Shown in pieces: positions 20,134 to 38,418 of a stretch of 52,064 nucleotides of DNA. The notes beneath the pieces were generated by a model that did no database searches, had not been told where the DNA came from, and saw only the letters and a program-made list of their open reading frames with translations. Both the position numbers and the translations under genes were made by a program. The stretch comes from a virus. Taxonomy: Duplodnaviria > Caudoviricetes. The stretch lies in the IMG/VR virus record IMGVR_UViG_3300021405_000018, positions 1-52,064 of that record. One strand, given 5' to 3'. How positions within the stretch are numbered: the first letter of the stretch is position 1; the number at the start of each line of letters is the position of its first letter.

Positions 20134-21292
20134 CCGTCTCGATCAACCCACTCCTCTTCAGGCCCTTGACTATCTCATCGAAGTCTCGCGGCTTGGGGAG
20201 GCTACCCCGGATGTAAGCGAACGCCTCTCCTATCTCTACACCCTGTACCCCATGCCGCGCAATGAAGTCAACCAGTCTGTCGGAAACGTTGCTTGTCTCC
20301 GTCTTCCCGATACGGTCAAAGATTGACAGAAGCGTGGACTCAAGGTTTGATACGTGGTGCTCAGCCGTTTGAAGGTCCTCTCTGCTGATAACGAGGGAGT
20401 CATCCCTCGCTGCAGAAAGAACCATTGCGAGCTTATGGAGGTGAGAAGCCTTGCGCGAGTAGAAGCCGCCAAGTCTAGAGTCGTCCTTCCCCTTGCCGTG
20501 GAGCGCACAATGTGCGTCGTACCAATCGATGCCCCACTGCACAGCATCAGGAGCAAGAGTGTACTCACCCTCAAGCCGTCCGATGGCATTGAGGTCGTCC
20601 AGCAAATACCGTTTGAGTGTGTTGTGCTCACGCCATTTCTCCTTTGAGATTTGCAGGCCAGGGTACATGATATTCTGGCGCTTCTCGTCCGCGTAGACCC
20701 ACATGATCCGGGAGACGAGGCCCCCCTCGATCATGTATGTGGGTATGTTGTCACTGATCCATGATGGGGTTGTGCAGCCGATGAGGTTGAGGAAGGGGTG
20801 TTCTACCTGCTCACTGCCATTCCCCTTCGTTGCCTTGTCGAGGGGGCCGCAGTCCCATAGGGTGGTGAGCATGTCCATCATCTGGCGGTCGTCAGTCGAT
20901 ATGAGGTTGCCGAGTTCGCCCGATTCGATGGTAAGGGAGTACGTCTCGACCGTGTTTCCGGGGGAATACTCCACCATCCTGACTGCTTTCTCGAAAGAAG
21001 ACACCAGCGCCTGCCATGTGGTGACGTTGGGTCCCATGTGGATATCGTCCACCTTCCGTAGGAGGCGCATTGCAAGACCCGCATTGGTCGATTTGGCGAT
21101 GACCCCCGGTGGTGCAACGAGGACCACGAACATGTTGGGGTACCACTGGAATGTAAGCTGATCAAACCACACCTTCCTCTGGAGTGCGCCTGCAATGGCA
21201 GAAACGCCTGACCAGAATAGAATGTGATCAGGCGCTTCACCTACATGCCCCAGTTCGATAAACCCCTGGAGCCAATTTGATAGTTTCCTCAT
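20069..21292 (-). CDS. DUF3987-like replication protein (P-loop-like, putative helicase)
   Basis: LVAPPG..AKST, LTTLWD, LIGCTTP.W, GGLVSR; ATGA-coupled to the polymerase. Confidence 0.7.
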   Translation of the reverse strand: MRKLSNWLQGFIELGHVGEAPDHILFWSGVSAIAGALQRKVWFDQLTFQWYPNMFVVLVAPPGVIAKSTNAGLAMRLLRKVDDIHMGPNVTTWQALVSSFEKAVRMVEYSPGNTVETYSLTIESGELGNLISTDDRQMMDMLTTLWDCGPLDKATKGNGSEQVEHPFLNLIGCTTPSWISDNIPTYMIEGGLVSRIMWVYADEKRQNIMYPGLQISKEKWREHNTLKRYLLDDLNAIGRLEGEYTLAPDAVQWGIDWYDAHCALHGKGKDDSRLGGFYSRKASHLHKLAMVLSAARDDSLVISREDLQTAEHHVSNLESTLLSIFDRIGKTETSNVSDRLVDFIARHGVQGVEIGEAFAYIRGSLPKPRDFDEIVKGLKRSGLIETVTVAAKVVLKKPAVKPDLANL

Positions 21293-22023
21293 TGACAATC
21301 CCCCCAACTCTTCTCACTCATTTTCAATCCAACGGGGATGACCAATGGTTCCGGGTAGGGGATGACGATGGTGGCTTCTCGCTTGACGGCTTCTGCGTAG
21401 TCCCCATCGCACTGAATGGGCCACTGCATAGTAAGGCTGTCGTGTACCTGCAACAGAATGTCCACCAGAGGTAGGTTATGGTCGATATTGACATATGCGT
21501 GATTGATGAGGATGCCTACTGTTGATTGGGGAACCCAGGCTACCATACGGTTAAGGATGTTACCCTCTATGCGTTCATAGAACTTCTTTTTGTACCCGAA
21601 AGCATTGGAGACAGTGCCTGTGCGTATGCAACGCTTAACGAACGCATCCTGCCAGCGCTTAATCTCGGGAAACATTTCAAAGTACCAATGCTGGATGCGC
21701 TCCACCTCCTTGACCAGTAGCCCACACTGCCCCGCAATCTCTGGTGCCTTACCCAGGTAGTTCGTAGCGTGGCATAGCTTCTTGAACGCATAGTAGCGCG
21801 GGTCCTCCGTACCATCAGAGCGCTTCTTCTGAATGCTGTTGTCATGGTAGTACTCTCGGGCCACCTGGAGGTATGGTTTTTTCCCCTCCCGGAATAAAGC
21901 CTTCATCCCTTTGCAGTCGCTCTCCCATGTCACTATCCGAAGGTCTGCGCTGTCCAGGTCCAGGTCGGCCATGACCATCCCCTCGTCCGGTATGAACATC
22001 GTACGGATATTGGGCATCGGCAT
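21289..22023 (-). CDS. DNA polymerase family A, C-terminal (palm/fingers) subunit
   Basis: NIR.MFIPD.G, motif A DLDSADLR, motif B KKLCHATNYLG, motif C LQVHDSL; own RBS GGAG. Confidence 0.9.
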   Translation of the reverse strand: MPMPNIRTMFIPDEGMVMADLDLDSADLRIVTWESDCKGMKALFREGKKPYLQVAREYYHDNSIQKKRSDGTEDPRYYAFKKLCHATNYLGKAPEIAGQCGLLVKEVERIQHWYFEMFPEIKRWQDAFVKRCIRTGTVSNAFGYKKKFYERIEGNILNRMVAWVPQSTVGILINHAYVNIDHNLPLVDILLQVHDSLTMQWPIQCDGDYAEAVKREATIVIPYPEPLVIPVGLKMSEKSWGDCQ

Positions 22024-22237
22024 AGCCTTCTCCTAGCATTAGGTAATCGAGGGTGACATCAAGGACACGGGCCAGTTCAAGGAGTGCCCAGTAGCCTGGG
22101 TGGACACCCATGTCCTCGTAGAGGTGCATCGATGTGGGATGCAGACGGGCTCGCTTGGCTAGGACATGGCGCAGGATTCCACGCTCCTCCCGTAGCCGTC
22201 GCAGGCGGGCACCAAAGGTTTCGAAGTCGTTGTTCAT
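21842..22237 (-). CDS. XRE/Cro-C1 HTH protein inserted between the polymerase halves
   Basis: FGARLRRLREERG...LA...YE...P...LARVLDVTLDYL.G; last ~60 codons overlap the polymerase out of frame. Confidence 0.8.
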   Translation of the reverse strand: MNNDFETFGARLRRLREERGILRHVLAKRARLHPTSMHLYEDMGVHPGYWALLELARVLDVTLDYLMLGEGYADAQYPYDVHTGRGDGHGRPGPGQRRPSDSDMGERLQRDEGFIPGGEKTIPPGGPRVLP

Positions 22238-23883
22238 AGCTTTTCCCTTCCATCCGTGATGTTTTGCAGGTTCATTCCCGAGCCGAAGGCGTCTGCGCTA
22301 CTGGAGAACCTGAAAGTGATCGCCCCATTGATATTGTAGCTACAGTGGATACGTCCGTCGTATCCAATTGCAGTGGCCTTAAGTGCGTTCGAAGCGAGGG
22401 TTTCGCAAGACCTAAACGTTGCGATACGATCAGTGATAGGCCTAAGAAATACCTCTCGTTGTCCAATTTTCTCAAGCGCTTCATCGTCACAACAGAGTGC
22501 CTTTGTCTTCCGATTGCGGATAGGCGTTGCGCCCATCTCGTCGTAGAAGAAGGTACACATCTGCTTCGGACTCTTCGGGTTGAGCGGATAGCCGACCATC
22601 TCCGTAATCTCTGCTTCAAGCTGCTTCGCATGGTCCTTTAACTCCTTCAACATTGCTTGGCGTCGGGCGTTGTCAACACGAACCCCACGCGCCATCGTCC
22701 TAAGCACAGGACCAAAGAGAGATTGCTGGAAGTCGTGCGGTCCACGTAGACCCATTCTATCGACCACCGACTGTAGAACGGTATCGCATTCATACGTTCG
22801 AATACAGTCCTCACAGTTGTATGCCCAATACTTGTCTTCATCCTGGTCTGCTCCCTTGTCCCACTCCTTGCCGTCATCCTTCCAGTAGACGTACCACTCG
22901 CAATACATCGAGGCAATGAAGTCGAGGGACTTCTGCATGCCGGGGAAGCACGTGTGCTGGGCTACCATTGTATCTCGAACTTGACGCGGAACCCAGTGCC
23001 AGTGCCGAAGTATATACTGCGCATCGTAGATGAAATTTTGCCCAACGGTGAGTACGTTTGGGTGTGTGAGTAGCCGATACAGCAGCCAAACAATCTCAGA
23101 TTCATCGTCTTCGTTCCAGTATCCCTGCGGTCGTTCGACACAGAGAAATGGCATACAGAGTGCTTCATGATTACTCCACGCTATACCAAGGCACGCAATG
23201 TGCCCGGCTCGGGTTTCAATGTCACATGCCAGTTTCAGGGCTCCTGCTTCAGCCTTGTGATATAGCATGTCAAGACAGTCCCGCACCTGGGACATTGTAG
23301 GCCGTACCTGAAACGCCCATCCGGGTCGATGAGGAACCCGTTGCACACAAGAGGCCGCTCTCCGCAAGTCTTGCACGACAATCGGCTTAAGTGTCCATTG
23401 GCGCAAGACAGCGGCGGGGTGATAGGTAGGTAGCACGATCCCATGTTCCGTCTCCAGGGTACTGCCTCGCCACTTCGCAACGCTATCGAGACCAGTGAGT
23501 GCCCACAGGGCAGTGTTACCGAGGGCGATGATGACGGTCGGACGTACGGCTCTAATTTCAGCAAGTAGTAGAAGGTGCCCCCGAGCGACGTGAGGATGCA
23601 CAGGCCTGCCACGCACCATGACAAAGCCTCCTGCCAGTCCCGCATGCTGCTTCTCCTTCGTGGTGGGCATCCAGAGGTCCATCTTGTTGCCTGGGGGCCG
23701 CTCCCGACAGACGTTCGTGATCCGCACCGAGGCACGGGCGATGCCAACGGCGGAGAGCATCTGGTCCAGGAGTTGGCCGCTGTAGCCCACAAAGGGCTCA
23801 CCAAGGCGCTCCTCGTCCACGCCGGGGGCTTCACCCACTATCATGATGCGGGCGTCCATAGGGCCTATGCTACCGACTGTCAT
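22234..23883 (-). CDS. Uracil-DNA glycosylase (family 4-like) + 3'-5' exonuclease + N-terminal part of family A polymerase
   Basis: GEAPG..E...G.PFVG.SG, TYHPAAVLR; exonuclease DIET / NFIYD / YNCED; NPKSPKQ; RFSSS...NLQNI followed by a stop. Confidence 0.9.
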   Translation of the reverse strand: MTVGSIGPMDARIMIVGEAPGVDEERLGEPFVGYSGQLLDQMLSAVGIARASVRITNVCRERPPGNKMDLWMPTTKEKQHAGLAGGFVMVRGRPVHPHVARGHLLLLAEIRAVRPTVIIALGNTALWALTGLDSVAKWRGSTLETEHGIVLPTYHPAAVLRQWTLKPIVVQDLRRAASCVQRVPHRPGWAFQVRPTMSQVRDCLDMLYHKAEAGALKLACDIETRAGHIACLGIAWSNHEALCMPFLCVERPQGYWNEDDESEIVWLLYRLLTHPNVLTVGQNFIYDAQYILRHWHWVPRQVRDTMVAQHTCFPGMQKSLDFIASMYCEWYVYWKDDGKEWDKGADQDEDKYWAYNCEDCIRTYECDTVLQSVVDRMGLRGPHDFQQSLFGPVLRTMARGVRVDNARRQAMLKELKDHAKQLEAEITEMVGYPLNPKSPKQMCTFFYDEMGATPIRNRKTKALCCDDEALEKIGQREVFLRPITDRIATFRSCETLASNALKATAIGYDGRIHCSYNINGAITFRFSSSADAFGSGMNLQNITDGREKL

Positions 23884-24534: not shown

Positions 24535-24710
24535 GACGGCTCCTTAATCTCCATCAGGAAGTTACCGTTGGGCATAGGCCCGTACTTGAAGTCCGGGAAC
24601 AGGACCATTGCTGCGTCGGCCTCTTCACGGGTTACCTCAATACGACCCCCAGCTTTCTGCACCAGGGCAAGGATGATCATCATCAGGACAGCTTCGTTCT
24701 CGTGCATCAT
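24531..24710 (-). CDS. Hypothetical protein (59 aa)
   Basis: MMHENEAVLMMIILALVQKAGGRIEV...; ATGA overlaps at both ends. Confidence 0.6.
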   Translation of the reverse strand: MMHENEAVLMMIILALVQKAGGRIEVTREEADAAMVLFPDFKYGPMPNGNFLMEIKEPS

Positions 24711-25132
24711 AGACCTCTCATAAATTCGTCGTAAGCCTTCTTGTCGATTGCCTCGGGCGCAAGTCCGGGGCGTGTCTCGGCAGGGTTCGCCACAGACGGC
24801 GGCGCAGGATCAGGCGGTCGCCGGATAGGCATACCATTGGGACCTGTCGTTGCGGTGTTGCGTGGATGGACAGCCCCCGCACTGATGCCCATACCTGCGG
24901 TGTTGGTGCGCATCGAGGCGAAGGGGTCGAGCTTCCCTCCAGCCTGATACCAGTTCATGTGGGGCGCTGCCTTACAGATGTCGCACTCAGTACAGTGGGA
25001 CATGTTAGTATCGAACATCCCACACTTGAAGCAAGCCCGCGTAGGCTTAACCCCAAGGGTGGACGCGGATATCTTAGCGTGGTACCCCAGCAGATCAGGG
25101 ATAGCCCTCATGTCGTGCGATGGATGGATCAT
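24707..25132 (-). CDS. Cys-rich hypothetical protein with shared C-terminal motif
   Basis: CFKC...CTECDIC; ends PEAIDKKAYDEFMRGL. Confidence 0.6.
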   Translation of the reverse strand: MIHPSHDMRAIPDLLGYHAKISASTLGVKPTRACFKCGMFDTNMSHCTECDICKAAPHMNWYQAGGKLDPFASMRTNTAGMGISAGAVHPRNTATTGPNGMPIRRPPDPAPPSVANPAETRPGLAPEAIDKKAYDEFMRGL

Positions 25133-25581
25133 GTCGGCCTCTTAACTTGATTGACTAGAATCTTACCTTGTTCCCGCAGGACCTTGACCACGCGTGGATC
25201 GTCGTCGTAGGCGCAGATAACCCGATCTTGGGGAACCGGGGAGACGGTGAGCCACTTCAGCTTCGTAGTCTCCGTTGGTTCCGCCACTGCTACTGCCTTC
25301 GGCCTTAAGAGGAGCTGTTCGAACGGTACGCCGTTGTTCCTTAGCCATACTTCTGTCTGACTCCTGATACGTTCGGTCCTGCCCGACCAGCACCATACCT
25401 GCTTGCCGAAGGCCTTGAAGGCGCGGGCCACAAGGATCGTAGGCATGATGGGCTGGTCGTAGATGCACTGATCCTCAAACTCGTCCCAGTCCATCTCATC
25501 ACGCTTGAAGTAATGGAGTCGGTGGTCCATGTCGGCCAGGGTGTTGTCGATATCGAAGAGGACGATGTTGGGTTCCATCAT
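25129..25581 (-). CDS. HAD phosphatase (T4 PNKP/PseT phosphatase-domain-like)
   Basis: FDIDNTLA, WSGR, LLLRP, K, YDDDPRVV. Confidence 0.85.
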   Translation of the reverse strand: MMEPNIVLFDIDNTLADMDHRLHYFKRDEMDWDEFEDQCIYDQPIMPTILVARAFKAFGKQVWCWSGRTERIRSQTEVWLRNNGVPFEQLLLRPKAVAVAEPTETTKLKWLTVSPVPQDRVICAYDDDPRVVKVLREQGKILVNQVKRPT

Positions 25582-28031: not shown

Positions 28032-28885
28032 TTTCGTGCTCCGGTCGAACGGCTCAGCCACTTGTCGTACAGGGGCTGGAAGGAAGGCGGCAACCCACTG
28101 GAGAGGGCAAGGTTCCTGTTCTTCACATCGGCATTGGCCTCCGCAGTACTCCAGGAGAACTTGTTCGTATCCTTCTTGGTCAGCACCACGTCGCTGAACT
28201 TCGCCGGGATGATCGGGGCGATAGCCTTCCCGAGGGTGCTAACCATCAGCTTGATTCCACCTTGAACGACATCAACTTCACGCTCGACGTGTGCAATCAG
28301 TACAAAATGGCAGCGGCATCCGTCGCATAGCTTTTTGATAAGGGACATGACATAAGCCTGTGCAACTCCCCAGTCAGTCTGTGTACGCTCTGCTCGCCCT
28401 CCGATGACGAGCTGCATAGCGTAATCGTTAAGCCCAGTGAGTCCGTCGAGCACGATAACTCTGTCCGTTCCCCATTGGTCTGCAGGCTCAAAGACCTGAC
28501 CGGTTCTTTGATCAGTAAATCCATGAAGCGCAGTAAGTAGCTTGAGATATCCATCGTACTTGTTCCTCCGTGCGTCAACCATCTTCATTACAGCGTCATG
28601 TGGAAGAGTGTTCGTCTTCTTCGCGGCCTCCGCGATGTCCATGAAGGAGGATTGCGGCTGCTGGAGAGCGTGAAGGTGAAGATTCGTGGGCACTGGTTGC
28701 CCTTCGTCAGTCCAGTAACCCACAAGACTTTCCGCTCCTGACTCCAGAGGAATGTAGAAAACTTCCAGACCGGTCTCCACGAGTGTGCCGATTGCATGTG
28801 TCTTCCCTGTGCCACTAGGTCCCATGAGGATGACGTTGAACCCATTGATGACATCTACTACTACTGTCGTATTGTTTCCAGTCAT
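28028..28885 (-). CDS. AAA ATPase (Sak4/AAA_24-like recombination protein)
   Basis: Walker A GPSGTGKT, Walker B IVLDG, LIAHVE, F.DV. Confidence 0.8.
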   Translation of the reverse strand: MTGNNTTVVVDVINGFNVILMGPSGTGKTHAIGTLVETGLEVFYIPLESGAESLVGYWTDEGQPVPTNLHLHALQQPQSSFMDIAEAAKKTNTLPHDAVMKMVDARRNKYDGYLKLLTALHGFTDQRTGQVFEPADQWGTDRVIVLDGLTGLNDYAMQLVIGGRAERTQTDWGVAQAYVMSLIKKLCDGCRCHFVLIAHVEREVDVVQGGIKLMVSTLGKAIAPIIPAKFSDVVLTKKDTNKFSWSTAEANADVKNRNLALSSGLPPSFQPLYDKWLSRSTGARN

Positions 28886-29445
28886 ACAATCCCCTTCACA
28901 TCCAGGATAAGGTGGATGCGCTCGGTCGTTCCGGTGTTGGAGAAGGCATGGCTCTCACGGTGGTTGAACCACCACAGTTCACCTGTGCTGAAGTGCTGGG
29001 TCTCCAGTTCGATACCCTTCTCCACCGCCATCTCACACCACTGGTTGGTCCGCAGCGCGACGTGCAGCCGGTGAGTTGATTCGGCGTACTTACCTTCGTC
29101 AACATGCCAGTCAACCCTCGTGTCGCGGGGGAGTCGCGCAATGATAATGCGGCCCAGGCCATGCACACCGGGGCATGCATGCTGCATCGCATGGACAATG
29201 GGCAGGAGGGCGTGGAAGCACTCCTGCATGTGCGGGTACGGCTCGGTGGTGCAATCGTCAAAGATTTTGTTGAGGTCGTGCTTCTCCTGGGTGCCCATCA
29301 GGATGATGGACTTTGTGGAATGGTGCGCCGACCCAGCGTAGCTCTGGCGCAGGGTCATCTCCTCCCACCAGTCGGGATGGGCGTCGAGGATGTCGAGCAG
29401 CGGCTGCACCGGGAGGTGGTCTGCCAGCTTCTTGAAGTATTTCAT
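28882..29445 (-). CDS. 2OG-Fe(II) oxygenase, Asp/Asn beta-hydroxylase family
   Basis: HVD, RLHV.L, GELWWFN...H...N.G...RIHLILD. Confidence 0.85.
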   Translation of the reverse strand: MKYFKKLADHLPVQPLLDILDAHPDWWEEMTLRQSYAGSAHHSTKSIILMGTQEKHDLNKIFDDCTTEPYPHMQECFHALLPIVHAMQHACPGVHGLGRIIIARLPRDTRVDWHVDEGKYAESTHRLHVALRTNQWCEMAVEKGIELETQHFSTGELWWFNHRESHAFSNTGTTERIHLILDVKGIV

Positions 29446-30098: not shown

Positions 30099-30998
30099 CT
30101 ATCTAGATAAAGGGTTCCACATGCTTTCTTCAAAGCCTGTGGATAACCAGTTCACCCGTCTATCGGGCGGGATGGAGCAGATGCCTTTGAAGATGCATCC
30201 GCCGTAATCGTTGCAAGTGTCGTCCAGCGCGGGCTCCCAATAGCCTCCCTTATAGTACGAAAGCGCCTGAGTAATGAGGTGGTCCCTGTGCTCGACCCAC
30301 TCGTCAATCTTCCAGTCGGGTGCATTGACAATAGCCTGAGCTGTCTCATACTTTGTCTTGAGTATGGAAACACCCCGCACAAGCGTCCCCTGAAGGCTAA
30401 GACCAAGTACGCGGCCTGCCCAAGCGTATCCTGTGAATTGCGAGCGAAGTTCCCATTGGTTAGACCACTTCGCACCCAGGGCTTTGGTCGTCTTGTCGTC
30501 TTCGGCATATCGGGCTCCACAGAAGTCCATTATCGTATCAGTGCGGCCTGCGTATAAGAGAGGCATACCCGTGTCTGGGTTGTTAAAGGGCAATGGGAGC
30601 GCAAAACGCCATTCAACCGCAGGTACTCCAGCAATGGTGGATATTCTGGCAGGGTCGTCGTCAAGCGGGTATTCACTGAAGTAGTACTCAAGGGCTCCCA
30701 CCATTCGATCAAGAGTCTTGCTCTCTGTATCGGGGCATTCCGCATCTCCGTACTCCTCAATCAGTGCAGCAGTGCCCATCTCAAGGCATTGCTCGGGGTC
30801 ATGCTGGCGCATGTAAGCCCCCCGAGCTACTTCAAGGCCCTTCGCGTAGGCCTTGCCCGCTGTTAGGTGGATCGACTCAGACGACCCAATCGGGGTGTAG
30901 CGACATACGTGCGCAAGAAAGAACTTCCTCGGACACCGCATCGACGCCAGCATCGTTGAGTCGAGGACTGGGGGAAACTTCGGCAGGTTGTTCGGCAT
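30099..30998 (-). CDS. Cas4-like PD-(D/E)XK exonuclease
   Basis: CPRK; GRTD; DDKTT; QFTGY; C....GC.F...C (4-Cys cluster pattern). Confidence 0.85.
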   Translation of the reverse strand: MPNNLPKFPPVLDSTMLASMRCPRKFFLAHVCRYTPIGSSESIHLTAGKAYAKGLEVARGAYMRQHDPEQCLEMGTAALIEEYGDAECPDTESKTLDRMVGALEYYFSEYPLDDDPARISTIAGVPAVEWRFALPLPFNNPDTGMPLLYAGRTDTIMDFCGARYAEDDKTTKALGAKWSNQWELRSQFTGYAWAGRVLGLSLQGTLVRGVSILKTKYETAQAIVNAPDWKIDEWVEHRDHLITQALSYYKGGYWEPALDDTCNDYGGCIFKGICSIPPDRRVNWLSTGFEESMWNPLSR

Positions 30999-33325: not shown

Positions 33326-33494
33326 CCTTACCCTCCATAAAGGCGTTGAAGGCGTCCTTGCACGATGGGCAGAGGTGCTTTTCCTCGTTCCACTCGAAGA
33401 GATAGAAGGATGTCCACCGTAGGCGAGCAAACCAGCCTACATCGGTCTTTTCACCACATCTATCACAGGTGTAGACCTGTCTCGTAGCCATCAT
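33291..33494 (-). CDS. Zn-ribbon protein
   Basis: CDRC...LCPSC. Confidence 0.65.
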   Translation of the reverse strand: MMATRQVYTCDRCGEKTDVGWFARLRWTSFYLFEWNEEKHLCPSCKDAFNAFMEGKDVSNPAGKSST

Positions 33495-34339
33495 TTTCCC
33501 ACCTGAATCAGGGGGATAGCGCCCCCAAGCATGTATTGCGGATACTCCCCATTCCACTTCTCGACCTTCAGCTTCTCGATGATGGCAGGGTTGGCTTCAA
33601 GCGACTTGCCGAGGAGGTCGTTGGCCTGTGCCTGATTACGCGCAGCTTCGAGGTCGGCCTGACTCTGGATGACGCGCTTCTGCGAGTCGAACTGGGTCTG
33701 CTTCAGCTCGTTCTGTGCCTGGATGGACTTCTGCTGGGCACTCGCTGCTGCCTCGATGGCGTCGTTGTATTGCTGACTGAAGTCAAGGTTGAGCAGGGCT
33801 GTGCTGACGACGGTGATGCCGTAGGGCGCTAGGCGGGACTTGAGGTTATCGGTGATTTTCTGGTTCACCGAGTCCCGTTGGGTCACTAGCTGGTTCGTGT
33901 CGAACTGCGAGATGGTTGCCTTCGCAACGTCCACCATGGTCGGCTGGATGATCCGGTTGGCAGGGTCGTTGGAGAGGTCCCGATAGACACTGACGGCGGC
34001 AGCAGGGTTGACGCGGTAGTTCAGGGCGAAGTCCACCGTGACGACCTGTTTGTCGTTACTGGCTGCTGCCAGCTTCTCGTCCACACGGGCCGTACCTACA
34101 TAGACGGGGTGGACCGTATCGCGTACAGGCATGCGGAAGTGCAGTCCCGCAGGCATCACCTCGGGGGATAGGCCGTCGAAGTTCTGCACGACGCCCACAT
34201 AACCGGGCTCCACGGTGACGACCGGGCGCATCGAGTACCCCATGATGAGGAGGATCAGGACAATGATGGTCCCGACCGTCCACTTGACTACCTTCAGGAA
34301 TGATGCATCATCCCTACTCAACTCTTGCTGCTGTGCCAT
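33491..34339 (-). CDS. SPFH/prohibitin (band 7) membrane protein
   Basis: N-terminal TM, V.PG.VGV, GLHF..P, coiled coil, EKWNG..P. Confidence 0.9.
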   Translation of the reverse strand: MAQQQELSRDDASFLKVVKWTVGTIIVLILLIMGYSMRPVVTVEPGYVGVVQNFDGLSPEVMPAGLHFRMPVRDTVHPVYVGTARVDEKLAAASNDKQVVTVDFALNYRVNPAAAVSVYRDLSNDPANRIIQPTMVDVAKATISQFDTNQLVTQRDSVNQKITDNLKSRLAPYGITVVSTALLNLDFSQQYNDAIEAAASAQQKSIQAQNELKQTQFDSQKRVIQSQADLEAARNQAQANDLLGKSLEANPAIIEKLKVEKWNGEYPQYMLGGAIPLIQVGK

Positions 34340-34363: not shown

Positions 34364-34448
34364 TGGTCCCCCACCCAGGAATCGAACCTGGCTGGCCAGA
34401 GGCAACGGGGTTACGGCCCGCCCCACATCCATAGTGGTCTAATGAGGG
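34364..34448 (-). tRNA. tRNA-Tyr(GUA), non-canonical
   Basis: Acceptor CCCTCAT/GTGGGGG + A + CCA; anticodon arm GCGGG-CCGTAAC-CCCGT; long variable arm; T arm CCAGG-TTCGATT-CCTGG; 85 nt. Confidence 0.8.
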
Positions 34449-35288: not shown

Positions 35289-35519
35289 TTAGTCCTCCAG
35301 ACCGACAAGGTAATCAATACTGCATTCAAGTACTATAGCCATCTTGATGATGGATCGCAAGCTGGGGTAAACCCCACGATTCTCGTAGGCCGTGATCTGG
35401 CATTGATGAAGGAAGCATTCGGCTGCAAACCTCTCAATGCCGTAACCACGGCGCATACGCTCGGCCTTGAGGCGGGTCCCAAGAGCCCCAAAGGCCTCCT
35501 TACGTTTATACGGCTTCAC
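35289..35519 (-). CDS. XRE-family HTH protein
   Basis: LGTRLK..R...G...YE....PS......A.VL.CSIDYLVG; GTGA-coupled to Ro60. Confidence 0.8.
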   Translation of the reverse strand: MKPYKRKEAFGALGTRLKAERMRRGYGIERFAAECFLHQCQITAYENRGVYPSLRSIIKMAIVLECSIDYLVGLED

Positions 35520-36964
35520 GCCTGGGCCTCCACAGCCCGGATGAAGTCAACTGAGGCTTCGCTGAAGCCATCAATATGCGTCCACTTTCCGTAACCAATC
35601 CCGTTCTTTGCGCTTGCCACGTTGATGAGGTATGCCCGACCACATCCAGGTTCCGCCAGCTTCGGGGATTGCGCATGATCAACAGCACAATCCTGCTCGT
35701 CCGTGACAACGACGATGCGGTCATACATTTCACGCTCGTTGATGAAGTCGAGCATGGGTTTGAGGAAGATGCCTCCTCCACCAAGCACTCTGTAGGACTC
35801 ATGGAATGCTGCAACGAGAGCCATTCCGTGCCTAGCTGGTACAGATTTCGTGGCGTGTGTTCGTGTGCGGTCGCTTCCTGCTGTTGCATAGACTACTGCC
35901 TCCTCACATTGTTCGCGCAGGATTGCGCACAGGGCGGCACCAGCGTCGATACGATTCAGGGTGGACTTGCTCGACAGCATGCTGCCCATCGAGCCCGACA
36001 CGTCGAGGACGATCAGCGTCCTCCCTTCAAGTTTCGGACCGTCCTGGAGTCCTTGCACCATCGCACCATCGAGCACAGCTTCGAACTGAGGGGCCTCGCG
36101 GGCTGCGCTGATGAAACGGAACGGGAGGACCTTGCTTGCGCCTTTACGGGCCTGGATGGCTTGTTCAATGAGGCCACGGTCCACCCCCAGTTCAGTCATC
36201 TTGCGCAGGTTCCGAAGGAGGGCCATATAGGGCAGCTTCCCCTCACGCAACATCACTTCGAATACATCTTTACTGCCACCTTCATCCCCCTTAGCTGCGC
36301 TAAGGCCCACTTCCCATGTCTCGGGCGTCTTGAGGGTGCGGTCAACGATGCGCCGATACAACTGTTCTTCAGGTGTAGTGCCCGCAGTGCTGCTCAACCG
36401 GTTACCAATGCCTTGCGCACGTTGATGCTTCGTGCCGTAGGCACCACTGACCGACTTCGGCTTCCCATGCACCATGAACAGAACGTCGCGCAGCTTGATA
36501 GGCGAGTCGGCCTTCTCCCATTTCGAGAACTGATACTCATCGAACTTGCGGAAGGCACGGGCAAGGCCGACCTTAACCTGCTTCGCAAGGGGACACTTAC
36601 CGTCCTTCCAGTAGATGGCCATGAATTCGGCTATCTCGTCGGGCCGTTGGATCACCCTAGCGAGGGTATCTCCAACCAGTTTGCCTCTCGCACATCGAGC
36701 AAGCGCCCGCACGAGCAGCAACGGTACGTGCCGAAGGTGTTGCTGTTCCCTTGCCTCAATGGCGAGTTGTGCAACAGTTGCAGGGTCGCATGCTGGCACC
36801 AGCTCTGCGATCCGACTAGCGATTGAGCCGCCTGATTCATACGCTTCGCCCTCCCAAAGCATGCACGACAGCACCGTGCGGCGTAGTTCTTCAATCGGGG
36901 TAAGGTGGAAGGCCTCTGCGCCGCCATGGGTACGAGGGCCTTCTGGATGGTTGGTACTGGACAT
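35516..36964 (-). CDS. rsr: Ro60/Rsr RNA-binding protein (TROVE + vWA)
   Basis: TROVE motifs LR.VP, RPDE..E, FDEYQ..KW, LRDVL...H.KP, TWE..LS, YMALLRNLR, LPFRF..A; vWA MIDAS DVSGSM, VTDEQ, GFSE; RBS AGGAG. Confidence 0.93.
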   Translation of the reverse strand: MSSTNHPEGPRTHGGAEAFHLTPIEELRRTVLSCMLWEGEAYESGGSIASRIAELVPACDPATVAQLAIEAREQQHLRHVPLLLVRALARCARGKLVGDTLARVIQRPDEIAEFMAIYWKDGKCPLAKQVKVGLARAFRKFDEYQFSKWEKADSPIKLRDVLFMVHGKPKSVSGAYGTKHQRAQGIGNRLSSTAGTTPEEQLYRRIVDRTLKTPETWEVGLSAAKGDEGGSKDVFEVMLREGKLPYMALLRNLRKMTELGVDRGLIEQAIQARKGASKVLPFRFISAAREAPQFEAVLDGAMVQGLQDGPKLEGRTLIVLDVSGSMGSMLSSKSTLNRIDAGAALCAILREQCEEAVVYATAGSDRTRTHATKSVPARHGMALVAAFHESYRVLGGGGIFLKPMLDFINEREMYDRIVVVTDEQDCAVDHAQSPKLAEPGCGRAYLINVASAKNGIGYGKWTHIDGFSEASVDFIRAVEAQA

Positions 36965-37001
36965 TACTGGTACTCCTAACTAACTTCAAGCCCCCGAAGG
37001 G

Positions 37002-37108
37002 GAGGGAACAGACATACAGGGACAAGACCTCATAAGAGGCCCCAGGATTCGAACCTGAACGCACCCGAAGGTGAGTATCAACCGATGTAACCCTGTACTA
37101 CACCACTT
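37002..37108 (-). ncRNA. Y-RNA-like gene 4 (T-arm-containing)
   Basis: AGTGGTGTAG-TACAGGG-TTACATCG...CCCTGTA-TGTCTGTTCCCT; internal CACC-TTCG-GGTG, CAGG-TTCGAAT-CCTG and GGCCTC/GAGGTC hairpins. Confidence 0.75.
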
Positions 37109-37287
37109 AAACTTGACTGGCGACGCCTTACGGGCGTCAATCGAGCGAAGATTTACCGTTTGCTTGAGTCTACGCTGTTGACCCACTCGACACGTAACGG
37201 CTTGTGGCTAGGGTATCGGCTTCCCCTTTGCAACTCTGCGCCCCGACACAAGGGCCTACCGAGAGTACGACGGTACTGCTGCAAATC

Positions 37288-37357
37288 TTTGGCGGGAACA
37301 AACGAGGACGGAAGGATTTCGACCTAAACGAAGTAACCGTACTCTTCACCACGCAAA
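37288..37357 (-). ncRNA. Y-RNA-like gene 3 (minimal)
   Basis: GCGTGGTGAAG-AGTACGG-TTACTTCG...CCGTCCTC-GTTTGTTCCCGC. Confidence 0.7.
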
Positions 37358-37395
37358 CCTTGGCCTCATTGCGGGGAGGTCCATCCTCGTAAGAC

Positions 37396-37455
37396 AAAAA
37401 GGAGTCACCAGGGCAGAGAGTTGGGGAAGACCTGCCACTGAGTCGTGTGACTCCG
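37396..37455 (-). other. Long hairpin followed by a T-tract (structured RNA or terminator)
   Basis: GGAGTCAC..CAG.GGCAG...CTGCC-CTG-GTGACTCC-TTTTT. Confidence 0.45.
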
Positions 37456-37461
37456 TAAAAC

Positions 37462-37530
37462 TGGCGGGACCCCACGGAATTGAACCGGGGTAGGAGATTC
37501 GCGAAAATGCTCCTAGTGCCAACACGTCCC
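37462..37530 (-). ncRNA. tRNA-like element ending in CCA (pseudo-tRNA)
   Basis: GGGAC/GTCCC-G-CCA, T loop GGTTCAATTCC, mini D hairpin GTG-TTGG-CAC, arm TAGGAG-13nt-CTCCTA. Confidence 0.6.
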
Positions 37531-37534
37531 AGTG

Positions 37535-37662
37535 TTGCGGCAACAAGCGATACGACGAACGTAAGTGCTCTAACCAACTGAGCTACATCCTTTCGGATGA
37601 CGGGACTCGAACCCGCGACCTCTCGCTTAGCAGGCGAAGTATGTCGTATCTTCAGCACGCAA
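37535..37662 (-). ncRNA. yrlA: YrlA-type Y RNA with circularly permuted tRNA domain (Y-RNA-like gene 2)
   Basis: Terminal stem GCGTGCTGAAGATACGAC/GTCGTATCGCTTGTTGCCGC; T arm GCGGGTTCGAGTCCCGT, then closed acceptor CATCC-GAAA-GGATG, then D arm TAGCTCAGTTGGTTAGAGCA. Confidence 0.88.
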
Positions 37663-37667
37663 ACTGG

Positions 37668-37763
37668 TTGGGGCAACAAGCAAGACGGCAGACAGTCGTA
37701 GCCAGGACTAGCCTGACATACGCCCGAATGGTGAGCGATGTAAGCCATCTCTTCAGCACCCAA
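37668..37763 (-). ncRNA. Y-RNA-like gene 1
   Basis: GGGTGCTGAAG-AGATGGC-TTACATCG...GCCGTCT-TGCTTGTTGCCCC. Confidence 0.75.
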
Positions 37764-38010
37764 AGGTGCAGGGTCTTTGCACGAGCCCACATTAGCACAT
37801 CCCCGCGAGGTCGGATGCCTTGTGGTACAAAGGCCCTGCCCTTTGAAGGCTGGGGACCCTTCCTGTTATCGAGTGGAAGGAACAAGCATCTCGCAAGCGC
37901 CGAGTGTAGGTGTCATCCACTCAGGCTTGAAGGGTGGGGCAACGGTTCGTTCCACTGGCCTGTTAGCGGGACGGGGGTACCATAGCAGTCAGCAGCGTTG
38001 CCCCATAAAG

Positions 38011-38418
38011 CTATGCTGCGTCCGCGTCATGTTCCGGGTAGTTCAGTACGATGGGATGCGCATTGAGATACTGCTCAATCGCCCGCGTCACCACTTCCCC
38101 AAGCACTCCAGTCCGAATGACCCCACCTCCACGATGCAACAGATACGACTGTAGCCTGTCATGGACTGCTTCGTCAACCGAAACATGAATGTACTTCCTC
38201 CCCTTCGCTGCTGGGTGCCCCATGTGTAACTCCCTTTGTGCCTCTAGCACGTTGATGCGACAGTGCAGTCGCGTAAACTCTTTCCAGTGATCGGAGACGA
38301 CATCCCTTGATGGACATGTCCGAACACTGTACCCACTTGCCGCCTTCAGGGCTAGGTCCATCGCTGCCTTGAGTGCGACCAGCTCCTCCGGCGACACGTT
38401 AAGCAGCATCCGCAGCAC
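38011..38418 (-). CDS. Protein with C-terminal ribbon-helix-helix-like segment (possible internal start at 38223)
   Basis: KYIHVSVDEAVHDRL...EVVTRAIEQYL. Confidence 0.5.
   Translation of the reverse strand: MLRMLLNVSPEELVALKAAMDLALKAASGYSVRTCPSRDVVSDHWKEFTRLHCRINVLEAQRELHMGHPAAKGRKYIHVSVDEAVHDRLQSYLLHRGGGVIRTGVLGEVVTRAIEQYLNAHPIVLNYPEHDADAA

What the first reader, a model, noticed from the sequence alone, without database searches (positions are those of the whole stretch)
35289..37990. Phage-encoded Ro60 with a ~1 kb array of paralogous Y RNAs and other structured RNAs
Seen: an intact TROVE-vWA gene (35516-36964, -) lies directly downstream of ~1 kb with no credible ORF. That stretch holds four elements (37668-37763, 37535-37662, 37288-37357, 37002-37108) with a common frame: 5' GTG[CG]TG[AT]AG - variable 7-8 bp stem - [TA]TAC[AT]TCG - variable module - complementary stem - [CT]TGTT[GC]CC 3'. 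The variable stems differ in sequence but stay paired (GATACGAC/GTCGTATC, AGATGGC/GCCGTCT, TACAGGG/CCCTGTA), which is compensatory change. Known: bacterial Ro60/Rsr binds Y RNAs encoded next to it; in Deinococcus a Y RNA tethers Rsr to PNPase; Ro60 and YrlA occur in some mycobacteriophages. Inference: this lytic-looking podophage of a diderm host makes one Ro60 ring with several interchangeable RNA adaptors. They might redirect host RNA decay or repair, or decoy tRNA-targeting defences.
Basis: partly seen in the sequence, partly recalled or inferred. Interest (0 to 1): 0.92.

Follow-up and report, generated by a model that had tools for sequence, protein, structure and literature searches.

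The report
Phage Ro60 gene with four Y RNAs
A 52-kb soil phage carries a Ro60 (TROVE) RNA-binding ring protein preceded by four small RNA genes that share a likely Ro60-docking stem but have different outer parts; this is a known kind of system, and similar RNA arrays sit beside most related phage Ro60 genes.

Summary
A Ro60 gene (35516-36964, -) follows a 1046-nt stretch without a credible ORF. That stretch holds four co-oriented elements: E1 37666-37766, E2 37531-37665, E3 37286-37359, E4 36996-37113. All four share one frame: a lower stem, a GUG[C/G]UG[A/U]AG internal loop, a variable 8-bp stem, [U/A]UAC[A/U]UCG, a variable module, then the complementary strands with GUU[G/C]CC. The 24-nt 5' pattern occurs 4 times against 0 expected. 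Of 15 pairs, 9 change on both sides among the four copies.

E2 is YrlA-like, but below Rfam's cut-off. A covariance model built from the four copies finds 106 more elements in 38 of 47 related TROVE loci. All lie on the TROVE strand, 105 of them upstream, in arrays of up to 8.

So these are very probably Ro60-bound Y RNAs. That makes the locus a new member of a known kind (Chen 2014; Thermus phage phiLo 2025), not a new system. Binding, processing and function remain inferred. The "other structured RNAs" are weakly supported. The idea of a decoy for anticodon nucleases is disfavoured, because this architecture has no anticodon loop and no free CCA end. What may be under-described is that tandem arrays are the rule, and that most members lack a full tRNA-like domain.

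The parts
35516..36964 (-). Ro60/Rsr orthologue (482 aa): TROVE HEAT-repeat ring plus a vWA domain with the DxSxS metal-site motif
   Evidence: Pfam TROVE 56.4 bits; vWA_Ro60 26.4 bits, under the 27.7 cut-off. PHROG 850 at 3.5e-39. phmmer to PDB 9kop/9l5y (Thermus phage phiLo Ro60) at E 2.1e-19 over residues 7-477. AlphaFold model pLDDT 80.1, pTM 0.75. The 12 best PDB fold matches listed are all Ro60 chains; 9kop has TM 0.68/0.70. D321, S323, S325, T421 and D422 are invariant in 16 homologues.
37666..37766 (-). E1: Y-RNA-like element. Shared frame plus a module of two hairpins without tRNA-like T or D arms. Has the rare C-G form of the lower-stem pair next to the loop.
   Evidence: R1 90.5 bits. 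Fold. Class '--'. C-G pair seen in 3 of 110 elements. Contigs of two RNA libraries cover 37528/37521-37746 with no differences.
37531..37665 (-). E2: YrlA-like Y RNA. Shared frame plus a permuted tRNA-like module: T arm, closed 5-bp acceptor-like stem with a GAAA loop, then D arm.
   Evidence: Rfam YrlA, full length 1-114, 43.5 bits, E 4.5e-8, below the gathering score of 69. R1 111.8 bits. T and D motifs in the order T before D. blastn finds the module at about 80% identity upstream of TROVE in Xanthomonas phages.
37462..37530 (-). tRNA-like hairpin cluster directly after E2: 5-bp terminal stem, long hairpin, T-loop-like hairpin, 3' GCCA. A possible processing signal; weak evidence.
   Evidence: MFE -26.8 kcal/mol, z -1.76, 11 of 200 shuffles as good. 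Not called by ARAGORN even at relaxed settings. No Rfam tRNA hit at E<=10. No similarity in other loci.
37396..37454 (-). Long GC-closed hairpin followed by U5: a terminator-like end of an E1-E2 unit (inferred).
   Evidence: z -2.68, 1 of 200 shuffles as good. Not called by the terminator scan, whose loop limit is 8. One RNA-library contig, 37352-37502, runs across it.
37286..37359 (-). E3: minimal Y-RNA-like element (74 nt). The frame is capped by a short hairpin. The upper stem has one U.C mismatch.
   Evidence: R1 71 bits. Class '--', which has a median of 76 nt and holds 51 of 110 elements. Fold z only -0.70.
37114..37285 (-). Spacer between E3 and E4, unexplained.
   Evidence: Fold z +0.83. 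No R1 hit with filters off. No Rfam hit. No blastn or nhmmer similarity to the other loci. The ORFs across it have no PHROG hit.
36996..37113 (-). E4: Y-RNA-like element. Frame plus a UUCG hairpin, a T arm (GGUUCGAAUCC type) and an acceptor-like hairpin; no D arm. It ends 31 nt before the Ro60 start codon.
   Evidence: R1 94.2 bits. Class 'T-'. Fold. Relaxed ARAGORN makes a poor pseudo-tRNA of it.
37767..38010 (-). Leader between the upstream ORF and E1, unexplained. Holds hairpins and a very weak frame-like stretch at 37870-37927.
   Evidence: Fold z -1.44. R1 6.4 bits, E 0.25, with filters off. No similarity in other loci. No sigma-70-like promoter was called inside the array.
35289..35519 (-). 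Small XRE-type HTH protein (76 aa). Its start overlaps the Ro60 stop by 4 nt, so it is probably co-transcribed. Not conserved beside TROVE in relatives.
   Evidence: Pfam HTH_3 24.8 bits. PHROG 3/8/4 transcriptional regulators. The genes downstream of TROVE differ in Xanthomonas, Brevundimonas and Caulobacter phages.

Best explanation
The phage encodes a Ro60 (Rsr) ring protein and, directly upstream on the same strand, four Y-RNA paralogues.

Shown by computation:
- Each RNA pairs its 5' and 3' ends into a lower stem, a conserved internal loop and a variable 8-bp upper stem. This is the architecture of the Ro60 docking site of known Y RNAs.
- Each RNA carries a different outer module: a full permuted tRNA mimic (E2), a T arm plus hairpins (E4), a minimal cap (E3), and two non-tRNA hairpins (E1).

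Inferred:
- The RNAs are made as one or two precursors. One would be E1-E2-tRNA-like-hairpin/U5. The other would be E3-spacer-E4-Ro60-HTH.
- The precursors are cut into separate small RNAs, and each small RNA binds the outer face of the Ro60 ring.
- This gives several RNP species in the infected cell. The RNAs with modules tether Ro60 to host factors. The best precedent is the exoribonuclease PNPase, as in Deinococcus and Salmonella RYPER and in Thermus phage phiLo in vitro. The minimal RNAs mainly gate or occupy the ring.
- The likely net effect is to redirect decay or quality control of structured host RNA during infection.
For: Protein:
- Pfam TROVE above its cut-off.
- Full-length match to the solved phage Ro60 of phiLo, E 2.1e-19.
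- The predicted fold matches only Ro60 chains at the top of the list.
- The metal-site residues are invariant in 16 homologues.

RNAs within the window:
- The 24-nt frame pattern occurs 4 times against 0 expected.
- 91.7% of cells pair and 9 of 15 pairs change on both sides. No shuffle of 500 was as good, and slid controls were far lower.
- The pair next to the loop is C-G in E1 and E2 and G-C in E3 and E4.
- E2 aligns end to end with Rfam YrlA (43.5 bits, E 4.5e-8).
- The loop motif is a close variant of the published Rsr motif GNCGAAN0-1G. The YUAY motif is present in all four (passages of PMC4201824).

Across other loci:
- Model R1, built from the four copies, finds 106 further elements at E<=0.001 in 38 of 47 related TROVE loci. 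All are on the TROVE strand and 105 of 106 lie upstream of the gene. Array sizes are 1-8.
- 37 of 71 gaps between neighbouring elements are 10 nt or less.
- In 5 whole phage records, 26 of 26 hits lie in one cluster next to the TROVE gene.
- Over the 110 elements, 96.3% of 1630 cells pair (shuffled 62.3%). All 15 pairs change on both sides. The covariation score is 0.875 against at most 0.138 when slid.

RNA libraries: two soil metatranscriptome runs from different studies hold contigs identical to 37528/37521-37746 (E1+E2). One of them also holds 36853-37087 and 37098-37349.

Precedents (passages read):
- M. smegmatis YrlA and YrlB are cut from one precursor upstream of rsr.
- phiLo Ro60 binds two upstream Y-like RNAs and forms ternary complexes with host PNPase.
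- Listeria phage CKA15 has three very abundant transcripts within 2 kb upstream of an Rsr-like gene, in the same direction.
Against: - No binding, 5'/3' ends or discrete transcripts were shown. RNA-library contigs can stem from carried-over DNA. In run X7, other genes are covered at similar depth. One contig of run X12 crosses the terminator-like hairpin.
- Single-sequence folding is unremarkable: z -0.70 to -1.83 for E1-E4.
- No Rfam family reaches its gathering score anywhere in the window. E2 scores 43.5 bits against the 69 needed. E1, E3 and E4 have no Rfam match at E<=10.
- The YrlA model also gives sub-threshold hits in 6 of 14 well-known control genomes. That hit alone is therefore weak.
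- The loop motif has U where the published motif has C, and E4 has U for an A.
- The large covariation counts are on hits chosen by, and aligned to, a model that already holds this structure. The invariance of UUACUUC-type letters is partly circular for the same reason.
- 9 of 47 related loci gave no hit, though some have almost no upstream DNA.
- 2 of 6 hits in five MAG genomes are stand-alone genes with no TROVE within 7-8 kb.
- PNPase tethering and any role in infection rest on analogy only.
Confidence: 0.8

Rival explanations
1. The elements are not free small RNAs. They are cis-acting parts of the Ro60 mRNA leader: repeated Ro60 binding sites through which the protein controls its own translation or mRNA stability.
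For: 105 of 106 elements in other loci are upstream of the TROVE gene and on its strand. E4 ends 31 nt before the start codon, with no terminator called in between. No promoter-like site was called inside the array.
Against: A strong hairpin plus U5 separates E1-E2 from E3-E4-Ro60. The elements lie downstream of TROVE in Microcystis phage Mvi-JY20 and in L004. Stand-alone copies with a promoter-like and a U-rich end exist in two MAGs. M. smegmatis Y RNAs upstream of rsr are processed out of the precursor and bound in trans. The two readings are not exclusive.
Confidence: 0.1
2. The main role of the tRNA-like modules is to act as decoys or sponges for host tRNA-targeting defences. Ro60 would serve only to stabilise them.
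For: E2 carries T and D arms close to the tRNA consensus, and E4 carries a T arm. YrlA RNAs are substrates of tRNA-modifying enzymes (passages of PMC4201824). The phage also has a PNKP-type phosphatase-domain protein at 25129-25581, an end-healing family.
Against: In this architecture the place of the anticodon arm is taken by the stem that leads to the Ro60 site. There is no anticodon loop and no free CCA end. E2's acceptor-like stem is a closed 5-bp hairpin. Only 25 of 110 elements have both T and D arms, and 51 have neither, so the shared feature is the frame and not tRNA mimicry. No RNA ligase was found among the ORFs scanned. Not all ORFs were scanned.
Confidence: 0.05
3. The elements are decayed tRNA genes or tRNA-derived repeats with no link to Ro60.
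For: Public records annotate the equivalent elements as tRNA-Thr, tRNA-Ser and tRNA-Gln. Relaxed ARAGORN makes pseudo-tRNAs of E2 and E4. TROVE genes often lie near tRNA clusters in large phages.
Against: E1 and E3 have no tRNA-like part yet keep the whole frame. The frame covaries and is found only beside TROVE in 5 whole phage records, 26 of 26 hits. Where T and D arms both occur, the T arm always precedes the D arm (25 of 25). That is the permuted YrlA order, not the tRNA order.
Confidence: 0.03

Closest known systems
Thermus phage phiLo Ro60 with Yrl1 and Yrl2 (NAR 2025, PMC12135203; PDB 9KOP, 9L5Y)
   Same: A phage-encoded Ro60 with Y-like RNAs directly upstream of the gene. It is the best sequence and fold match of the window's protein. 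Both have a stem-bulge-stem RNA with a CGAA-type motif (passages).
   Different: Only 22% sequence identity in the fold alignment. Two RNAs there against four here. Binding and PNPase complexes were shown in vitro there; nothing was shown here. I could not compare the RNA sequences, because the record was not among the tblastn rows I saw and supplements are closed.
Bacterial Rsr with YrlA/YrlB (Salmonella Typhimurium, Mycobacterium smegmatis; Chen et al. 2014, PMC4201824; Rfam RF02553)
   Same: E2 has the YrlA layout: docking stem, YUAY, T arm, closed acceptor-like stem, D arm. It aligns full length to RF02553. As in M. smegmatis, there is more than one Y RNA upstream of the gene. E3 and E4 recall YrlB, which has a possible T arm.
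   Different: E2 is below Rfam's gathering score (43.5 against 69 bits). The loop motif has U for the published C. There are four RNAs rather than two. No rtcB/rtcA partners were seen. The context is a phage, not a cellular genome.
Deinococcus radiodurans Rsr-Yrn1-PNPase (RYPER)
   Same: This is the mechanistic model: a Y RNA docks on Ro60 and its other end tethers an exoribonuclease (abstract and passages). The Ro60 fold matches 2NVO.
   Different: The tRNA-like parts of Yrn1 are arranged differently and are thought to have evolved independently. No PNPase link was tested here.
Y-like RNA arrays of other phages (CcrColossus, Xanthomonas phages Tabio and 10KY502B, Brevundimonas phage Gurke; Listeria phage CKA15 transcripts, PMC12282133)
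   Same: The same frame in tandem, co-oriented and upstream of TROVE: 8, 5, 5 and 4 copies. CKA15 shows three very abundant RNAs upstream of an Rsr-like gene.
   Different: Ro60 identity to the window is only 45-48%. The modules and their order are not conserved. In the public records these elements are unannotated or called tRNAs. CKA15 itself was not examined here.
Metazoan Ro60 with its small family of Y RNAs
   Same: One Ro60 protein with several paralogous Y RNAs that share the terminal docking stem and differ in the loop part (recalled; general statements).
   Different: No Rfam Y_RNA match at E<=10. The metazoan RNAs are separate RNA polymerase III genes (abstract in the listing); these appear to be packed into one or two units.

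Membership tests
Ro60 / Rsr (TROVE + vWA ring protein) | TROVE (HEAT-repeat) domain | tested here: met
   Pfam PF05731 56.4 bits against a cut-off of 23. PHROG 850 at 3.5e-39.
Ro60 / Rsr (TROVE + vWA ring protein) | C-terminal vWA domain with MIDAS residues | tested here: met
   Pfam vWA_Ro60 26.4 bits, just under the cut-off of 27.7. D321-x-S323-x-S325, T421 and D422 are invariant in 16 homologues. An alpha/beta domain is predicted at 312-465. vWA domains follow the Ro60 chains in the fold-match list.
Ro60 / Rsr (TROVE + vWA ring protein) | Overall fold like solved Ro60 rings | tested here: met
   Foldseek: the 12 best listed chains are all Ro60 (phiLo, Xenopus, human, Deinococcus), with TMq 0.58-0.69 and E down to 4e-17. 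phmmer to 9kop at 2.1e-19 over residues 7-477.
Ro60 / Rsr (TROVE + vWA ring protein) | Binds Y RNA and misfolded RNA | not testable with these tools
   Needs co-purification or gel-shift assays.
Y RNA (Ro60-associated small RNA, any lineage) | 5' and 3' ends pair into a long stem that carries the Ro60 site | tested here: met
   15-pair structure, 91.7% paired, 9 pairs with compensatory change among the 4 copies. 96.3% paired over 110 elements, on a model-fitted alignment.
Y RNA (Ro60-associated small RNA, any lineage) | Conserved 5'-strand recognition motif (bacterial form GNCGAAN0-1G, Chen 2014) | tested here: inconclusive
   The window has GCUGAAG (E1, E2), GGUGAAG (E3) and GGUGUAG (E4), a one- or two-letter variant of the motif. 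Among the 110 elements the third letter is U in 58 and C in 52. Motif quoted from passages.
Y RNA (Ro60-associated small RNA, any lineage) | Encoded next to the Ro60 gene | tested here: met
   All four lie within 31-802 nt upstream on the same strand. 105 of 106 relatives do likewise.
Y RNA (Ro60-associated small RNA, any lineage) | Exists as a discrete stable RNA bound by Ro60 | tested here: inconclusive
   Identical contigs in RNA libraries of two studies cover E1+E2. Contigs cannot show ends, strand or level, and DNA carry-over is possible. Binding is not testable here.
YrlA (Rfam RF02553) | Score at or above Rfam's gathering cut-off (69 bits) | tested here: not met
   E2 scores 43.5 bits. 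E1, E3 and E4 have no match at E<=10. Relatives in other phages score 31-56 bits, none over the cut-off. I therefore call E2 YrlA-like and do not file it as a curated member.
YrlA (Rfam RF02553) | Permuted tRNA-like domain: T arm, closed acceptor-like stem, D arm, preceded by YUAY | tested here: met
   Met for E2 only. The alignment to the model covers positions 1-114 with the T, AS and D helices. T comes before D. E4 has T and AS but no D. E1 and E3 have neither T nor D.

The most novel reading that the evidence does not exclude
Phage Ro60 loci are adaptor libraries. A near-invariant docking frame (GUGGYGWAG / UUACUUC / GUUCCC) is duplicated in tandem 2-8 times and fused to fast-changing outer modules. 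One phage ring protein would then be aimed at several different host partners or RNA substrates at once. About half of the copies, the minimal 70-76-nt ones like E3, would act as gates or competitors rather than tethers. If so, arrays rather than single Y RNAs are the functional unit. They would evolve by duplication and module swapping under pressure from host RNA-decay and defence systems. Searches centred on YrlA would have missed about three quarters of phage Y RNAs.
Probability: 0.3. Interest if true: 0.7.

Novelty: new member of a known kind. Interest (0 to 1): 0.45.

Why it matters
What the outer modules of bacterial and phage Y RNAs do is still open. This locus is a compact, complete example: one Ro60 gene and four RNAs with one docking frame and four different modules.

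The model built from it shows the same layout beside most related phage TROVE genes. These include cultured, non-pathogenic systems such as CcrColossus on Caulobacter, which has 8 copies. That gives a direct way to test whether different Y RNAs recruit different partners.

It also gives a practical annotation point. These elements are missed at Rfam's threshold or are mislabelled as tRNAs in public phage records. Only 25 of the 110 elements have the full tRNA-like domain that earlier searches relied on.

Tried and rejected
- Rfam at gathering thresholds over the whole window found nothing. At E<=10 over 36900-38100 it found only YrlA for E2 and a weak tRNA match inside E2.
- ARAGORN found only tRNA-Tyr at 34364-34448. 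With relaxed settings it produced poor pseudo-tRNAs over E2 and E4 and nothing at 37462-37530. I therefore keep 'tRNA-like' for that piece only as a description of its fold.
- The promoter and terminator scan gave no site inside the array, and its counts did not exceed the shuffles.
- A fifth copy: R1 with filters off gave 6.4 bits, E 0.25, at 37870-37927. Not accepted.
- Conserved RNAs in the two unexplained stretches and in the tRNA-like/hairpin stretch: blastn and nhmmer against all fetched loci and the rest of the window found nothing.
- Close relatives of this phage, wanted for orthologous covariation: none were found. The best Ro60 identities are 48% in phage records, 47% in IMG/VR, 46-59% (partial) in metagenome contigs and 48% in genome contigs.
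- R1 found nothing beside TROVE in Ralstonia phage RsoM2USA or crAss-like cr106_1. It also found nothing in 9 of the 47 loci. The model may be too narrow, or those flanks too short.
- Parts of the 7-kb stretch without cover in the RNA runs are not evidence of silence.
- Host and tail type: not resolved.
- Reviews PMC10870794 and PMC6047535 are not held. The supplementary tables of Chen 2014, which list YrlA copies per phage, are closed. My statement that long arrays are under-described rests only on searches and the passages read. Those tables may already list several copies per phage.
- Complex prediction was not used, because the partner in question is RNA.

Full report
What the window is. 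The window is a whole IMG/VR virus record of 52,064 bases, classed as linear, with a CheckV completeness estimate of 100%. It has phage genes for terminase, portal, DNA polymerase (in two ORFs), primase-helicase and a Sak4-like annealing protein. The terminase is at most 41% identical to any record of the phage collection. The lineage is therefore new. Host and tail type remain open. The runs that hold this DNA are labelled soil metagenomes.

The protein. ORF 35516-36964 (-) encodes 482 aa. Pfam gives TROVE at 56.4 bits (cut-off 23) and vWA_Ro60 at 26.4 bits, just under its cut-off of 27.7. PHROG 850 'RNA-binding protein' matches at 3.5e-39. Against all PDB sequences only the Ro60 of Thermus phage phiLo matches (9kop, 9l5y; E 2.1e-19; residues 7-477 on 18-482). 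An AlphaFold model built on 16 homologues has pLDDT 80.1 and pTM 0.75. Its 12 best listed PDB matches are all Ro60 chains from phiLo, Xenopus, human and Deinococcus, with TMq 0.58-0.69. The DxSxS metal-site residues of the vWA domain are invariant in the 16 sequences. This is an intact Ro60/Rsr orthologue. A 76-aa XRE-type HTH gene (35289-35519) overlaps its stop codon.

The observation. No credible ORF lies between the Ro60 start (36964) and the stop of the next ORF upstream (38011). The five ORFs that cross this stretch have no PHROG match. The pattern GTGSTGWAG-N7-WTACWTCG matches exactly four times in the window, against 0 in 100 shuffles. A MAFFT alignment of the four (A1) supports one common frame:
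- a lower stem of 7 pairs with a bulged U;
- an internal loop whose 5' strand is UG[A/U]A;
- an upper stem of 8 pairs;
- [U/A]UAC[A/U]UCG;
- a module of 12 to about 71 nt;
- the 3' strand of the upper stem, then a few letters and GUU[G/C]CC with the lower-stem complement.

With this structure 91.7% of 60 cells pair and 9 of 15 pairs change on both sides. No shuffle of 500 reaches the covariation score (0.789). Sliding the partners by 1-3 columns drops pairing to 37-52%. Seven of the eight upper-stem pairs show a change on both sides among the four copies. The lower-stem pair next to the loop is C-G in E1 and E2 and G-C in E3 and E4. Single-sequence folding energies are not remarkable, with z from -0.70 to -1.83. 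The case therefore rests on the shared frame and on compensation, not on stability.

What the modules are.
- E2 (37531-37665) aligns over all 114 positions of Rfam YrlA: T arm, a closed 5-bp acceptor-like stem with a GAAA loop, then a D arm. It scores 43.5 bits, E 4.5e-8, below the curated 69 bits.
- E4 (36996-37113) has a UUCG hairpin, a T arm with a consensus-like loop and an acceptor-like hairpin, but no D arm.
- E3 (37286-37359) is a minimal 74-nt form.
- E1 (37666-37766) has two hairpins with nothing tRNA-like.

A caution applies to E2. The YrlA model also gives sub-threshold matches in 6 of 14 well-known control genomes. Chen et al. warned that tandem tRNAs can mimic YrlA. The Rfam hit alone would therefore not suffice.

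The frame in other loci. I built a covariance model (R1) from the four copies using only the 15 frame pairs. In the window it finds only those four. With filters off the next best match scores 6.4 bits, E 0.25. tblastn shows TROVE homologues in 88 phage records. I fetched 47 related loci that I then searched together:
- 8 from named phage records;
- 4 from IMG/VR;
- 32 of the 33 metagenome loci;
- 7 from genome contigs.
L005, L014 and L010 were left out as near-duplicates or the window's own record.

R1 gives 110 matches at E<=0.001, of which 106 lie outside the window, in 38 of the 47 loci. All 106 are on the strand of the TROVE gene, and 105 lie upstream of its start. The number of copies per locus, window included, is: 1 in 11 loci, 2 in 9, 3 in 5, 4 in 9, 5 in 3, 7 in one and 8 in one (Caulobacter phage CcrColossus). 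Neighbouring elements are tightly packed: 37 of 71 gaps are 10 nt or less and 22 are 11-40 nt.

Specificity. In five whole phage records (280, 322, 43, 43 and 72 kb), all 26 hits lie in one cluster beside the TROVE gene. Over the 110 elements 96.3% of 1630 cells pair, against 62.3% when shuffled. All 15 pairs change on both sides. The covariation score is 0.875, against at most 0.138 for slid partners. These hits were chosen by the model and aligned to it, which favours its structure, so the size of the effect should be read with that in mind. Four further loci from more distant phages gave mixed results:
- one hit upstream in Rhizobium phage RHph_TM39;
- two hits just downstream of TROVE in Microcystis phage Mvi-JY20;
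- none in Ralstonia phage RsoM2USA or crAss-like cr106_1.

By simple motif tests only 25 of the 110 have both T and D arms, always in the order T before D. A further 33 have a T arm only, 1 has a D arm only, and 51 have neither (median length 76 nt). A UNC[U/A]UC motif follows the upper stem in 108 of 110. The shared feature is therefore the frame, not tRNA mimicry. The Rfam YrlA model found 10 sub-threshold matches in the nine loci where R1 found 35.

Exceptions. In five MAG genomes that carry TROVE (15.9 Mb in all), R1 gave 6 hits. Four lie beside TROVE. The other two are stand-alone genes of 70-76 nt with a promoter-like sequence upstream and a U-rich end. They sit before a P-loop GTPase-type ORF that I recall as Era-like but did not test. 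No TROVE homologue lies within 7-8 kb, and no Rfam family matches them. The TROVE loci of those same two genomes (L045, L046) had no R1 hit beside them. These may be Y RNAs encoded in trans, but I did not follow this up.

Transcription. No promoter-like site was called in the array. Between E2 and E3 lies a 69-nt hairpin cluster with a T-loop-like hairpin and a 3' GCCA (37462-37530; z -1.76). After it comes a long GC-closed hairpin followed by U5 (37396-37454; z -2.68, with 1 of 200 shuffles as good). My reading, which is inferred, is two units: E1-E2-tRNA-like-terminator, and E3-spacer-E4-Ro60-HTH. Endonucleases would release the small RNAs, as in M. smegmatis. The tRNA-like piece could mark the 3' end of E2. 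However, ARAGORN and Rfam do not see a tRNA there and it has no counterpart in other loci.

RNA libraries. Three soil metatranscriptome runs hold parts of the stretch. Contigs of two of them, from different studies, match 37528-37746 and 37521-37746 without a difference. That is E1 without its first 17-20 nt, plus all of E2. The contigs stop within a few bases of the E2/tRNA-like junction. One run also holds 36853-37087 and 37098-37349. This is a weak hint of expression. Contigs show no strand, ends or level. DNA carry-over cannot be excluded. Run X7 covers other genes at similar depth. A 151-nt contig of run X12 runs across the terminator-like hairpin.

How it most likely works. Shown by computation: an intact Ro60, four co-oriented RNAs with a compensating docking-type stem, and an association of that frame with TROVE genes across many phages. 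Inferred from established knowledge of Ro60/Y RNA systems (passages): each RNA binds the outer face of the ring through the 5' strand of the stem. The module end recruits a partner, with PNPase the best precedent, including for a phage Ro60 in vitro. The bound RNA also gates access to the ring's cavity. With four RNAs the infected cell would hold four RNP species. The minimal E3 type, which is the commonest class overall, has little to offer a partner and may act mainly as a gate or competitor.

Comparison and novelty. Phage Ro60 genes with YrlA-like RNAs were reported in 22 phages in 2014. According to the phiLo paper, these include mycobacteriophages, CcrColossus and Bacillus phage G. phiLo Ro60 with two upstream Y-like RNAs was characterised structurally in 2025. 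A Listeria phage study suspected that three abundant upstream transcripts are Y RNAs. The window is therefore a new member of a known kind, in a new phage lineage. What I did not find in print is the generality of tightly packed arrays of up to 8 and the finding that most members lack the full tRNA-like domain. That statement rests on searches and on passages of five papers. Two reviews are not held, and the supplements of the 2014 paper are closed and may list several copies per phage. This is a useful extension, not a new category.

Verdict. Interest is 0.45.

Noticed in passing
L007:2292-2359, L008:2296-2370, L009:1655-1722: Public records annotate tRNA-Thr (Xanthomonas phage 10KY502B), tRNA-Ser (Brevundimonas phage Gurke) and tRNA-Gln (CcrColossus) at places that lie inside frame-bearing Y-like elements (R1 hits L007:2286-2422, L008:2296-2432, L009:1649-1818). 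These are probably mis-called tRNA-like modules.
   Followed up: partly
L056:2691-2766 and L057:3553-3623: Two stand-alone 70-76-nt genes with the same frame, a promoter-like sequence and a U-rich end. They sit before a P-loop GTPase-type ORF in two unrelated MAG genomes. Each genome has a TROVE gene elsewhere (L045, L046) with no such element beside it. No TROVE lies within 7-8 kb, and there is no Rfam match. They may be Y RNAs encoded in trans.
   Followed up: partly
window 25129-25581 (-): A 150-aa protein matches the phosphatase domain of polynucleotide kinase-phosphatase (Pfam HAD_PNKP, 49.1 bits). The adjacent ORF 24707-25132 has no family hit. It could be an RNA or DNA end-healing function in the same phage.
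   Followed up: no
window 22234-23883 and 21289-22023 (-): DNA polymerase (PHROG 17) is split over two ORFs that match profile positions 478-986 and 996-1233. A 131-aa ORF (21842-22237) overlaps the junction. This could be a natural split, a frameshift or an inserted element.
   Followed up: no
window 34364-34448 (-) and 33491-34339 (-): A tRNA-Tyr (GTA) gene is the only tRNA that ARAGORN calls. It lies about 840 nt downstream of the HTH gene and directly before an SPFH/Band 7 protein gene.
   Followed up: no
window 37098 (inside E4), run X3: An RNA-library contig matches 37098-37349 with two differences and then departs from the window inside E4's upper stem. This suggests a co-occurring strain with a different E4 stem.
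   Followed up: no
L052:3881-3953 and 3959-4096; L004:5228-5301: In Microcystis phage Mvi-JY20 the two frame-bearing elements lie just downstream of the TROVE gene and before a tRNA cluster. In IMG/VR locus L004 the single element lies about 850 nt downstream. The upstream position is therefore common but not obligatory.
   Followed up: partly
L008:5872-6217: Brevundimonas phage Gurke has a permuted tmRNA above Rfam's cut-off (57.7 bits against 47) about 2 kb downstream of its TROVE gene, next to a tRNA.
   Followed up: no
window 37114-37285 and 37360-37530 (-): The two larger gaps in the window's array are 172 and 171 nt, about the size of one element each. The first 59 nt of the 37114-37285 gap fold into an 8-bp terminal stem around two hairpins. 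It might be a decayed copy, but R1 does not detect it.
   Followed up: partly
window 28882-29445 (-) and 30099-30998 (-): An Asp/Arg beta-hydroxylase-like protein (Pfam 39.7 bits) and a PD-(D/E)XK nuclease lie next to the Sak4-like annealing protein.
   Followed up: no
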